Sequence record: OR846573.1
DNA from: a phage
Direction: 5' to 3' (one strand)
DNA: 1,005 nt
This document shows, in pieces, positions 1 to 1,005 of this stretch. The first letter of the stretch is position 1, and each line of letters opens with the position of its first letter. The position numbers and the translations under genes are program-made. The notes under the pieces are model-generated. The model searched no databases. It was not told the origin of the DNA and saw only the letters and a program-made list of their open reading frames with translations.

Positions 1-2
1 AT

Positions 3-58
3 TGTGACGTACACCGGACAACAACACGACGCATTGCAGATGTGCCAGCCCTGACACA
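3..58 (-). promoter_or_regulatory. Two TGT-N12-ACA dyads (3-20 and 41-58), candidate Ogr/delta-type late-activator sites of a promoter probably firing leftward off the window
   Basis: Seen in sequence: TGT at 3-5 with ACA at 18-20, and TGT at 41-43 with ACA at 56-58; centres are 38 bp apart. Established knowledge: P2/P4 late promoters carry TGT-N12-ACA centred near -55, and P4 promoters have a second delta site near -18. If transcription runs leftward, the centres (49.5 and 11.5) place the start about 6 bp left of position 1, with a -10-like CACAAT on the minus strand at 6..1. The dyad is self-complementary, so direction is not fixed by the sequence; a rightward start near 67 is the alternative. 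Confidence 0.35.
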
Positions 59-136
59 GGAGACTCATCCTCAGACCGGCAAGCCAGGAAAAGGTCGCAG
101 GAAAAACCGGCTTACTGTTTGTTTTTTTATATTTTA

Positions 137-241
137 CTGTTCACCTCTGTTCACCATAAGAAAAAAGATAAGTAATACAGTAAGTTAAAGGGTGAACAAT
201 CGCAGTAATGACTGTTCACCGTCTGTTCACCACTGTTCACC
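137..241. repeat. Iteron cluster: six copies of octamer TGTTCACC (five direct, one inverted), P4 type I iteron-like; candidate crr/origin-type cis replication element
   Basis: Seen in sequence: TGTTCACC at 138-145, 148-155, 213-220, 224-231 and 234-241 (all with a preceding C, i.e. CTGTTCACC), and inverted as GGTGAACA at 191-198. Spacing within clusters is 10-11 bp. Background is AT-rich and non-coding. The identification with P4 alpha-protein iterons is from memory, not from a search. Confidence 0.8.
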
Positions 242-280: not shown

Positions 281-399
281 TTATTAATTCACTGAAATAA
301 ATAAGAAAAAACAATTTGCATTTCACTATAAAAAATTCCAGTTCCTTCAGAACCCTTTGAGACCCTTCCAGTCCGGATGGATAAAAAACACACAGCCAT

Positions 400-456
400 T
401 GTAAGGTTACCGGAACAAATTCCCCCTGTTGCGTCTGCTGAAAATATTCACAAAAT
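400..456 (+). promoter_or_regulatory. Activator-dependent late-type promoter for the AlpA/Vis-like gene: TGT-N12-ACA dyad (400-417), weak -35 TTGCGT (429-434), weak -10 CAAAAT (451-456)
   Basis: Seen in sequence: the dyad centre at 408.5 puts a predicted start near 463. The weak -35 and -10 hexamers (16-bp spacer) sit at the matching positions, and the ATG at 520 follows after a leader of about 57 nt. A partial second dyad (TGC 436-438 ... ACA 450-452) lies about 36 bp downstream of the first. Weak core hexamers are expected for an activator-dependent promoter. Confidence 0.4.
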
Positions 457-519
457 AAAGCGCTACCCGAAGCCGGACGGACTTATCCGGTGCTGTATGG
501 ACATTAACGAGGTAGCCCG

Positions 520-786
520 ATGCAAGCTGTTTTTTCTTCCCCGTCTCCCGCCCCTGTTACGCCACTGATGCCGCTGCCGGACATCACGCAGGAGCGTTTT
601 TTACGTCTGCCGGAAGTGATGCACCTGTGCGGCCTGTCACGCTCGACCATCTATGAACTCATCCGTAAGGGGGAATTTCCGCCGCAGGTGAGTCTTGGCG
701 GTAAAAATGTGGCCTGGCTGCACTCTGAAGTCACCGCATGGATGGCCGGGCGCATTGCCGGACGCAAACGGGGGTACGACGCATGA
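520..786 (+). CDS. alpA: AlpA/Vis-family (Phage_AlpA-type, MerR-like HTH) transcriptional regulator / excisionase-like DNA-binding protein, 88 aa; P4 Vis-like
   Basis: Complete ORF, ATG 520 to TGA 784-786, with GAGG Shine-Dalgarno at 509-512 (7-nt spacer). Residues about 25-75 (ERFLRLPEVMHLCGLSRSTIYELIRKGEFPPQVSLGGKNVAWLHSEVTAWMAGR) match the AlpA-family pattern by eye: LRLP..V, G.SRSTIY, G.FP, LG.. and W..SEV..W. Size and basic C-terminus fit the family. The symbol is family-level; in a true P4 genome the gene would be called vis. Confidence 0.88.
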   Translation: MQAVFSSPSPAPVTPLMPLPDITQERFLRLPEVMHLCGLSRSTIYELIRKGEFPPQVSLGGKNVAWLHSEVTAWMAGRIAGRKRGYDA

Positions 787-1005
787 TGATGCCCGCTCTG
801 CAAAAACTCCCTTTTTCTGGCTTGCCTTTTTCCGGCATTTGCGGATATAGTTTTTCCGCTGCCGCAAAATCGGCAGCCGGGCGTGAGAACCCGAGTATGT
901 TATCGGCGACATATGACGCGCCATGCGTCTTTTTTTGTGTCGCAATCAACGCCACAGAGCGCCAGATTATGGTGTGGCGTGTGGTTTGCCGTGCAGGTAT
1001 GATCC
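783..1005 (+). CDS. Possible 3'-truncated ORF of unknown function, start overlapping the upstream stop (ATGA); alternative internal start at 897
   Basis: Seen in sequence: three in-frame ATGs at 783-791; the first overlaps the TGA of the upstream gene. The frame stays open for 74 codons to the window edge (about 3 percent chance in random sequence), but two minus-strand frames are also open here, so stop-poor composition may explain it. The translation (MMMPALQKLPFSGLPFSGICGYSFSAAAKSAAGRENPSMLSATYDAPCVFFCVAINATERQIMVWRVVCRAGMI...) is Cys-rich and not recognisable to me. A hairpin plus T-run lies inside it (915-936). Confidence 0.25.
   Translation, partial: MMMPALQKLPFSGLPFSGICGYSFSAAAKSAAGRENPSMLSATYDAPCVFFCVAINATERQIMVWRVVCRAGMI
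822..851 (+). promoter_or_regulatory. Possible sigma70 promoter: -35 TTGCCT (822-827), 18-bp spacer, -10 TATAGT (846-851)
   Basis: Seen in sequence: 4/6 and 5/6 matches to the consensus hexamers with an acceptable spacer. Position immediately downstream of the regulator gene would fit an early promoter of a P4-like left operon, but this is by eye only. Confidence 0.25.
858..877. promoter_or_regulatory. Perfect 7-bp inverted repeat GCTGCCG-caaaat-CGGCAGC; candidate operator or 5' RNA stem-loop
   Basis: Seen in sequence: GCTGCCG (858-864) and its reverse complement CGGCAGC (871-877) around a 6-nt loop. It lies just downstream of the putative -10 at 846-851, i.e. at the predicted transcript start. 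No T-run follows on either strand, so it is not an intrinsic terminator. Confidence 0.3.
915..936 (+). terminator. Candidate weak intrinsic terminator or attenuator: GACGC-gccat-GCGTC hairpin followed by seven T
   Basis: Seen in sequence: 5-bp GC-rich stem (915-919 / 925-929), 5-nt loop, then TTTTTTT at 930-936. Strand-specific: the minus-strand transcript would have the A-run before the hairpin. The stem is short, so termination is likely partial or regulated. Confidence 0.3.

What the first reader, a model, noticed from the sequence alone, without database searches (positions are those of the whole stretch)
3..58. Two TGT-N12-ACA dyads 38 bp apart at the left edge: delta/Ogr-type two-site promoter, probably divergent
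TGT-N12-ACA is expected about 0.25 times per kb by chance, yet it occurs three times here, two of them 38 bp apart. As I recall, P4 delta binds its own late promoters (Psid, PLL) at two sites centred near -55 and -18, which is about this spacing. Read leftward, the geometry gives a start about 6 bp outside the window with a CACAAT -10 on the minus strand. That would make the iteron region sit between two divergent late-type promoters, as in P4.
Basis: partly seen in the sequence, partly recalled or inferred. Interest (0 to 1): 0.5.

Follow-up and report, generated by a model that had tools for sequence, protein, structure and literature searches.

The report
Known P4 satellite sid late promoter

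Summary
TGT-N12-ACA occurs at 3-20, 41-58 and 400-417, against 0.36 expected; 2 of 200 shuffles reach 3.

The window is a P4-like prophage at tRNA-Leu in E. coli O157:H7, 93.9% identical to phage P4 9550..8554. In the printed upstream stretches, bases 1-60 are identical to the DNA upstream of P4 sid.

On the minus strand, 33 bp left of the window, start sid (99% identical to P4 Sid), delta (99%, two Ogr/Delta zinc-finger modules) and psu.

In the register of the start sites and activator sites annotated in the P2 RefSeq record, the start falls 7 bp outside the window. CACAAT then lies at -12..-7 and the dyads are centred at -55.5 and -17.5.

The distal dyad is invariant in half-sites and position in 16 loci whose Sid is 57-66% identical. 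The proximal dyad is perfect only in the P4 lineage. Relatives carry TGT-N12-AGA and a one-finger delta.

The third dyad sits upstream of vis at the expected PLL position, and the ori iterons lie between the two promoters.

Verdict: this is P4 Psid, already known. Interest is low.

Delta binding at -18 rests on recollection of Julien & Calendar 1995, which is not held in the library.

The parts
41..58 (-). Distal activator (Ogr/Delta) site of the leftward sid promoter. It reads TGTGTCAGGGCTGGCACA in sid sense and is centred at -55.5 from the inferred start.
   Evidence: It is a perfect TGT-N12-ACA and is identical to P4. In 16 loci from other Enterobacterales whose Sid is only 57-66% identical, the site lies 85-91 bp (mostly 90-91) before the sid ATG and its half-sites TGTG.CA / T..CACA are invariant. 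It lies in the same register as the activator site annotated for P2 pO.
3..20 (-). Proximal dyad, TGTCCGGTGTACGTCACA in sid sense, centred at -17.5. It is the putative second Delta site and overlaps the -10 hexamer.
   Evidence: It is a perfect TGT-N12-ACA. The left half (TTGTTGT) is invariant in all relatives. The right half is ACA only in the P4 lineage and AGA in the 16 divergent Sid-derived loci and in 53 distinct IMG/VR promoter sequences. Binding by Delta is recalled from the literature and was not tested here.
1..6 (-). -10 hexamer CACAAT of the sid promoter, at -12..-7. The inferred start (an A) lies 7 bp left of window base 1, at L002:8994.
   Evidence: Register with the annotated P2 start sites. 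Relatives carry CAGAAT at the same place. No sigma-70 -35/-10 consensus pair is found here, as expected for an activator-dependent promoter.
78..110 (-). Conserved block upstream of the distal site, about -84 to -116. It contains two TTTTCCTG motifs 13 bp apart. Its role is unknown.
   Evidence: The block is conserved in the divergent loci. It is an inverted copy of the PLE -35 region (arms 78-94 and 810-826, 94% complementary). The motif positions are conserved across loci.
138..241 (.). P4-type replication origin iterons (TGTTCACC, six copies), lying between the two divergent late promoters.
   Evidence: They correspond to the 'ori type 1 repeat' features of the P4 record X51522. Repeat family D2.
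400..417 (+). Third TGT-N12-ACA dyad, at the expected position of the activator site of the rightward late promoter PLL upstream of vis (orf88). With CAAAAT (451-456) as the -10 and a start near 463, it is centred near -54.5.
   Evidence: It lies 120 bp before the vis ATG throughout the P4 lineage. The core GAAAATATTCACAAAATA is conserved in most relatives shown, but the dyad itself is not perfect in them.
520..786 (+). vis / orf88, an AlpA-family DNA-binding protein and the first gene downstream of PLL.
   Evidence: Pfam Phage_AlpA, E = 7e-21. It is the homologue of P4 ORF88.

Best explanation
Window 1-58 is the upstream and core part of Psid, the late promoter of a P4-type phage satellite. 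It fires leftward, on the minus strand, from a start about 7 bp outside the window, and transcribes sid (capsid-size scaffold), delta (late activator) and psu.

The promoter has a usable -10 (CACAAT) but no -35. It is therefore silent until a small zinc-finger activator binds the TGT-N12-ACA dyad centred at -55 and recruits RNA polymerase. That activator is Ogr of a P2-type helper or the satellite's own Delta. Because delta lies in the operon, the circuit feeds back positively on itself.

In the P4 lineage a second perfect dyad centred at -18 lies between the -35 position and the -10 hexamer. It most likely serves as an extra Delta site.

Shown here: identity with P4 Psid, the gene context, the presence of the activator gene, the lack of a sigma-70 consensus, the -55 geometry relative to annotated P2 promoters, and deep conservation of the distal site.

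Inferred: the exact start site, the protein binding, and the role of the -18 site.
For: The window is 100% identical to the E. coli O157:H7 chromosome and 93.9% identical to P4 9550..8554. In the printed upstream stretches, bases 1-60 are identical to P4.

On the minus strand, left of the window, lie sid, an ogr/Delta zinc-finger gene and psu. The sid ATG is 33 bp away. Delta is 164/166 and Sid 242/244 identical to P4. Delta has two Ogr_Delta stretches.

The P2 RefSeq record annotates activator sites centred 55-58 bp upstream of the pP, pO, pV and pF start sites. In the pO register the dyads here fall at -55.5 and -17.5 and CACAAT at -12..-7.

There is no sigma-70 consensus promoter at this end of the window. 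The only one found is PLE at 822-851.

The distal dyad is invariant in half-sites, with a variable spacer, and lies 85-91 bp before the sid ATG in 16 loci with 57-66% Sid identity.

The 116-nt promoter region is present in 982 of 5426 complete E. coli genomes, in 827 of them at 99% identity or more.

Literature held in the library states that P2 late promoters share TGT-N12-ACA and depend on Ogr (PMC3931495). It also states that Ogr trans-activates P4 delta, psu and sid (PMC7552001).
Against: No transcript or binding data exist for this element, and none can be produced with these tools.

The primary papers on the Psid start site and on the -55/-18 footprints (Dale et al. 1986; Julien & Calendar 1995) are not held. 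That detail therefore rests on recollection.

The right half of the proximal dyad is not conserved. All divergent relatives have AGA, and it coincides with the -10 hexamer.

The P2 record annotates only one activator site per late promoter (pP and pO share one), and P2's own sites are not perfect TGT-N12-ACA.
Confidence: 0.92

Rival explanations
1. It is a one-site promoter. Only the distal dyad (41-58) is an activator site. The proximal 'dyad' (3-20) is a coincidence of a conserved TTGTTGT element with the ACA inside the -10 hexamer CACAAT.
For: In 16 divergent Sid-derived loci and 53 distinct IMG/VR promoter sequences the right half is AGA, not ACA. The P2 record annotates a single activator site per late promoter, shared by pP and pO. 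With one mismatch allowed the pattern is not enriched.
Against: The left-half TGT sits exactly 12 bp from the -10 triplet and is invariant in all relatives. It lies at -26..-24, where a -35 hexamer cannot explain its conservation. The perfect form is fixed in 75 of 79 loci with the tandem Delta.
Confidence: 0.25
2. The two dyads serve a rightward (+ strand) promoter that points into the origin. By symmetry, 3-20 would be the -55 site and 41-58 the -18 site of a start near window 67.
For: The 38-bp spacing is symmetric, so the geometry alone fits either direction.
Against: The hexamer at -12..-7 for that start would be CACAGG (55-60), which lacks the final T. No gene follows: the region downstream is the replication origin, and the next gene starts at 520. 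In relatives the strongly conserved extended site is 41-58, at a fixed distance from the sid ATG, and the conserved -10-like hexamer is on the sid side.
Confidence: 0.03
3. The dyads are sites for a different regulator (for example a CRP-like TGTGA-N6-TCACA site) or for the replication protein alpha, rather than for Ogr/Delta.
For: 41-58 reads TGTGC-N6-TGACA, which matches 8 of 10 CRP half-site positions (read). The sites lie inside the 'origin of DNA replication' feature of the P4 record.
Against: In relatives the same site reads TGTGGCA-N4-TGGCACA. The CRP right half is lost there, while the outer TGT/ACA triplets at N12 are kept. The repeats annotated as ori repeats in the P4 record are TGTTCACC iterons at 138-241, not these sites.
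Confidence: 0.03
4. It is a chance occurrence without function.
For: 2 of 200 shuffles also give three matches.
Against: The sequence is identical to a characterised promoter region of P4, and the distal site is deeply conserved in position and half-sites.
Confidence: 0.01

Closest known systems
Psid, the late promoter of the sid-delta-psu operon of satellite phage P4 (X51522 / NC_001609, just upstream of sid at 9583)
   Same: It is the same locus. In the printed upstream stretches, window 1-60 is identical to P4. The first difference is one base in the leader outside the window (TTTCTC versus TTTCTT). The downstream genes are the same at 99% protein identity. The divergent arrangement is the same, with ori and PLL/vis on the other side.
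   Different: Only the host context differs. Here it is a prophage copy at tRNA-Leu in E. coli O157:H7 that carries a type II restriction-modification cargo between int and psu. The window as a whole is 93.9% identical to P4.
P2 late promoters pP, pO, pV and pF (Ogr-dependent)
   Same: The activator site is centred 55-58 bp upstream of the start. The left half of the pO site and the Psid distal site (TGTGTCAG) lie in the same register. The -35 is weak or absent.
   Different: The P2 sites are imperfect versions of the dyad: none matches TGT-N12-ACA exactly. Only one site per promoter is annotated, shared by pP and pO. There is no sequence homology outside the site.
PLL, the other Delta/Ogr-dependent late promoter of P4 (window 400-463)
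   Same: It has a perfect TGT-N12-ACA about 55 bp upstream of a CA.AAT-type -10 (CAAAAT), points away from Psid, and belongs to the same element.
   Different: No perfect second dyad is seen in the -18 register. The nearest one-mismatch match (427-444) is centred near -27.5. The dyad is less conserved among relatives than the Psid distal site.
Psid-type promoters of P4-like satellites with a one-finger Delta (Klebsiella, Raoultella, Enterobacter, Citrobacter and others; loci L006-L023)
   Same: They share the same distal site, the same spacing to sid, the same invariant TTGTTGT, and a CA.AAT -10.
   Different: Their proximal site reads TGT-N12-AGA, and their activator is 67-87 aa with one zinc-finger module instead of 166 aa with two.

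Membership tests
Ogr/Delta-dependent late promoters of P2-type phages and P4-type satellites | A partial or perfect dyad TGT-N12-ACA centred about 55 bp upstream of the transcription start | tested here: met
   The perfect dyad at 41-58 is centred at -55.5 when placed in the register of the annotated P2 pO site and start. The start itself is inferred, not mapped.
Ogr/Delta-dependent late promoters of P2-type phages and P4-type satellites | No recognisable -35 hexamer, with a -10-like hexamer present (positively controlled promoter) | tested here: met
   The sigma-70 consensus scan finds nothing at this end of the window. CACAAT lies at -12..-7, and the hexamer 17 bp upstream is TCGTGT, 2 of 6 matches.
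Ogr/Delta-dependent late promoters of P2-type phages and P4-type satellites | A cognate Ogr/Delta-family C4 zinc-finger activator in the element or its helper | tested here: met
   A delta gene lies in the same operon. Pfam Ogr_Delta scores E = 7e-22 with 2 stretches, and the protein is 99% identical to P4 Delta.
Ogr/Delta-dependent late promoters of P2-type phages and P4-type satellites | Drives late (morphogenetic or helper-exploitation) genes | tested here: met
   sid, delta and psu follow on the minus strand, with the sid ATG 33 bp left of the window.
Ogr/Delta-dependent late promoters of P2-type phages and P4-type satellites | Transcription depends on the activator, and the activator footprints on the dyad | not testable with these tools
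   This needs RACE or a reporter assay plus EMSA or a footprint. The published experiments on P4 itself are in papers not held in the library.
P4 Psid specifically | Orthologous position and sequence: immediately upstream of sid, divergent from ori and PLL/vis | tested here: met
   In the printed upstream stretches, window 1-60 is identical to P4 upstream of sid. Synteny is psu-delta-sid | ori | vis-...-alpha.
Two-site (-55 and -18) architecture ascribed to the P4 late promoters | A second activator site centred near -18 | tested here: inconclusive
   A perfect dyad centred at -17.5 is present and is fixed in 75 of 79 tandem-Delta loci. Its right half overlaps the -10 hexamer and reads AGA in all one-finger-Delta relatives. 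Binding could not be tested.

The most novel reading that the evidence does not exclude
The perfect -18 dyad may be a derived feature of the P4 lineage that arose together with the tandem, two-finger Delta. Promoters with two perfect dyads go with the 166-aa Delta (44 of 45 assessable loci, and 75 of 79 in a second sample). All 86 assessable promoters with TGT-N12-AGA go with a one-finger Delta of 67-87 aa.

If the second finger module reads the -18 site, promoter and activator architecture co-evolved. That could make P4's own late promoters respond preferentially to its own Delta rather than to helper Ogr.

All tandem Deltas are 98-100% identical, so this is a single evolutionary event. Comparative data cannot test the idea.
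Probability: 0.3. Interest if true: 0.35.

Novelty: already known. Interest (0 to 1): 0.1.

Why it matters
For the scan, this is a correct call on a textbook element. It shows that the TGT-N12-ACA dyad, combined with its geometry, identified a P4-type late promoter from sequence alone.

Biologically it adds nothing new about P4. The same 116-nt promoter sits in about 18% of complete E. coli genomes (982 of 5426).

Two by-products are new, and both are modest. First, only the -55 site is conserved across P4-like satellites, while the perfect -18 dyad is confined to the lineage with the two-finger Delta. Second, a conserved TTTTYCYG motif pair lies upstream of Psid and is mirrored at PLE, and no explanation accounts for it.

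Tried and rejected
1. Primary papers. I tried to read the papers that map the Psid start and the -55/-18 footprints, plus the main reviews: PMID 7601839 / PMC177091, PMID 1987128, PMC178405, PMC372931, PMC4836473 and PMC213327. None is held. Full-text searches for Psid, PLL and Ogr found no paper giving these details. One of these searches returned only GNSS engineering papers.

2. Record annotation. The P4 GenBank and RefSeq records do not annotate Psid. The 1984 record X02534 marks a 'consensus -10' at window 50-56 on the minus strand. That position is inside the distal dyad and does not fit the conserved geometry, so I disregarded it.

3. Rightward reading of the two dyads. Rejected: the -10 is poor, there is no downstream gene, and the conservation is oriented towards sid.

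4. CRP-like reading of 41-58. Rejected because the CRP right half is lost in relatives.

5. Independent lineages of tandem Delta, sought to test co-variation with the -18 dyad. None was found: all are 98-100% identical.

6. A second PLL site in the -18 register. No convincing match was found.

7. Clusters of the TTTTYCYG motif near att/int, which would have pointed to Vis. None was found.

Full report
OBSERVATION

The exact pattern TGT-N12-ACA occurs at 3-20, 41-58 and 400-417. Dinucleotide-preserving shuffles give 0.36 matches on average, and only 2 of 200 reach three. The first two copies start 38 bp apart. Window 1-6 reads CACAAT on the minus strand. With one mismatch allowed the pattern is not enriched (9 found, 5.3 expected), so only the perfect copies stand out.

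WHAT THE WINDOW IS

The window is 100% identical to the chromosome of many E. coli O157:H7 strains, and 1059 of 5426 complete E. coli genomes hold a match. It is 93.9% identical over 996 bases to satellite phage P4, coordinates 9550..8554 on the P4 minus strand. The + strand of the window is therefore P4's leftward direction.

In strain FRIK944 the window lies in an element next to tRNA-Leu. The gene order is: integrase, a type II restriction-modification pair, psu, an ogr/Delta-like zinc-finger gene, a 244-aa 'hypothetical protein', then the window, then an AlpA-type regulator, an Icd-like protein, three small genes and a primase-helicase. This is the P4 gene order.

- The 244-aa protein is 242/244 identical to P4 Sid.
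- The zinc-finger protein is 164/166 identical to P4 Delta and has two Ogr_Delta stretches.
- The sid ATG is 33 bp left of window base 1, on the minus strand.
- In the upstream-of-sid stretches printed for P4 and for the O157 element, window 1-60 is identical to P4. The first difference is one base in the leader outside the window.

The finding therefore lies on the homologue of P4's Psid promoter.

GEOMETRY

The P4 records do not annotate Psid. The P2 RefSeq record does annotate the start sites and 'activator binding sites' of the four Ogr-dependent late promoters. The site centres lie 55-58 bp upstream of the starts.

I placed the sid-sense sequence in the register of P2 pO, whose site begins with the same TGTGTCAG. 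This puts the start at L002:8994, an A located 7 bp left of window base 1 and 26 nt before the sid ATG. CACAAT then lies at -12..-7, and the two dyads are centred at -55.5 and -17.5.

No sigma-70 consensus promoter is found at this end of the window. The only one in the region is TTGCCT-18-TATAGT at 822-851. This fits a positively controlled promoter without a -35.

The start is inferred, not mapped.

COMPARATIVE TEST

I searched with Sid, aligned 21 homologues and scanned one genome per species. That gave 19 loci, 16 of which have a Sid only 57-66% identical and enough upstream sequence to analyse. The upstream regions align without difficulty.

- The distal site lies 85-91 bp (mostly 90-91) before the sid ATG in all of them. 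Its half-sites TGTG[CT]CA / T[GA][CG]CACA are invariant and its 4-bp centre is variable. This is the pattern expected of a protein-binding dyad.
- The proximal site behaves differently. Its left half, within an invariant TTGTTGT at -30..-24, is conserved everywhere.
- Its right half is ACA only in P4, the O157 element and one near-identical contig. The 16 divergent loci read AGA, inside a conserved CAGAAT -10.

The invariant TTGTTGT lies too close to the -10 to be a -35 hexamer, so something else constrains it. This is compatible with a proximal activator contact but does not prove one.

A pattern scan of IMG/VR gave 120 more stretches. Together with the loci already held, there are 141 promoters and 59 distinct 80-nt sequences.

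- Six near-identical sequences have the perfect proximal dyad.
- The other 53 have AGA.

ACTIVATOR ARCHITECTURE

The perfect two-dyad promoter goes with the 166-aa two-finger Delta in 44 of 45 assessable loci. The exception, L049, has a decayed sid followed by an 81-aa Delta. The AGA form goes with a 67-87-aa one-finger Delta in 86 of 86 assessable loci.

A scan with the Delta protein found 79 loci. All encode a Delta 98-100% identical to the query, and 75 of them have both perfect dyads 20 bp apart. The tandem Delta is thus one tight lineage, and the association is a single evolutionary event, suggestive but not testable by comparison.

A 2025 paper notes that shorter Delta homologues match residues 1-40 and 120-160 of P4 Delta (PMC11718236). 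This agrees with the length classes seen here.

MECHANISM

This part is established knowledge plus inference. Literature held in the library states two things:
- P2's four late promoters share TGT-N12-ACA and depend on the zinc-finger activator Ogr (PMC3931495).
- Ogr trans-activates P4 delta, psu and sid, and Delta is an Ogr homologue (PMC7552001; PMC8628076).

From my own knowledge, not verified here:
- Ogr-type activators work through the C-terminal domain of the RNA polymerase alpha subunit.
- Julien & Calendar (1995) footprinted Delta at about -55 on all six P2 and P4 late promoters, and at an additional site near -18 on Psid and PLL.

The best reading follows. An activator bound at 41-58 recruits polymerase to a promoter that lacks a -35. 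Transcription runs leftward out of the window into sid-delta-psu, which gives positive feedback through delta. The 3-20 dyad is a second Delta site peculiar to the P4 lineage.

I put confidence that this is Psid, with 41-58 as its activator site, at about 0.92. I put confidence that 3-20 is a real second site at about 0.65-0.7.

RIVALS

- One-site promoter, with the proximal dyad a coincidence of TTGTTGT and the -10: about 0.25. It is supported by the AGA relatives and by the single annotated site per P2 promoter.
- Rightward promoter: about 0.03. The symmetric spacing allows it, but the -10 would be CACAGG, no gene follows, and conservation is tied to sid.
- CRP-like or alpha-protein site: about 0.03. 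The CRP right half is lost in relatives, and the annotated ori repeats are the TGTTCACC iterons at 138-241.
- Chance: about 0.01.

The six P4 'ori type 1' repeats map to window 138-241.

The third dyad (400-417) lies 120 bp before the vis ATG. With CAAAAT (451-456) as the -10 it is centred near -54.5 from a start near 463, which is the expected position of PLL.

So the origin does sit between two divergent late-type promoters, because this is a P4-type element. Among relatives the PLL core is conserved in most loci shown, but the dyad is not perfect: it resembles TGT-N13-ACA.

VERDICT

The feature is the already known P4 Psid promoter, present nearly unchanged in 982 of 5426 complete E. coli genomes. 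Interest is low.

The only open points are the functional status of the -18 dyad outside the P4 lineage, and an unexplained conserved motif pair just upstream of the promoter.

Noticed in passing
window 78-110 (minus strand) and 810-858 (plus strand): The motif TTTTYCYG occurs twice upstream of the Psid distal site (window 85 and 98, minus strand, 13 bp apart). It occurs three times around PLE (812, 827 and 851, plus strand). Arms 78-94 and 810-826 are 94% complementary. The motif positions are kept in divergent P4-like loci. The 12.1-kb element holds 14 copies against 1.5 in shuffles. This is a candidate site for an unidentified regulator. There is no cluster near att/int.
   Followed up: partly
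window 822-935: The only sigma-70 consensus promoter in the region is TTGCCT-18-TATAGT at 822-851, at the position expected for P4's early promoter PLE (my assignment). Directly downstream, 858-935 matches Rfam isrK (71 bits, above the gathering score) and 845-897 matches c4-a1b1, the targets of C4 antisense RNA. A terminator-like hairpin lies at 915-929. This fits the P4 immunity-RNA leader. Part of the stretch (897-944) is 91-95% identical to Stx2a-converting and Salmonella phages.
   Followed up: partly
L006-L023 and L025-L144, versus L002 and L145-L223: P4-like satellites split into two classes. One tight lineage has a 166-aa two-finger Delta and two perfect dyads in Psid. A much more diverse set has a 67-87-aa one-finger Delta and TGT-N12-AGA at the proximal position.
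   Followed up: yes
L049 (IMGVR_UViG_2534681663_000021), minus strand, from about 7074: This is a natural chimera or decayed element. A P4-type two-dyad Psid is followed by a disrupted sid (only a 98-aa ORF), an 81-aa one-finger Delta and psu.
   Followed up: partly
L024 (P2 NC_001895) 3057-3087, 10239-10266, 17555-17583: None of P2's own annotated activator sites matches TGT-N12-ACA exactly. For example, the pO site reads TGTGTCAGTGATAAGCCA. A strict pattern search would therefore miss the helper's late promoters while finding the satellite's.
   Followed up: partly
window 400-463 and the homologous region of L006-L144: The PLL dyad is perfect and lies 120 bp before the vis ATG only in the P4 lineage. 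Most relatives have a shifted or imperfect version, although the core GAAAATATTCACAAAATA and the leader are strongly conserved. No convincing second site is seen in the -18 register.
   Followed up: partly
window 303-321 and 520-538: A 19-nt inverted repeat, 89% complementary (AAGAAAAAACAATTTGCAT / ATGCAAGCTGTTTTTTCTT). One arm covers the vis start codon. It may be regulatory pairing or chance.
   Followed up: no
L002 4367-6774 and 15960-19005: The cargo between int and psu is a type II restriction endonuclease plus a cytosine methyltransferase. Beyond the element lie a phosphorothioate-dependent endonuclease and type II Zorya genes. The satellite thus sits in a defence-rich neighbourhood.
   Followed up: no
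L004 (NC_001609) 1308-2042; L002 8234-8968: Annotation of sid is inconsistent. RefSeq P4 labels the sid product 'polarity suppression Psu-like'. The O157 record calls it 'hypothetical protein'. Other sources call it 'glycoprotein 3' or 'capsid size-determining scaffold Sid'. Sid has no Pfam family.
   Followed up: no
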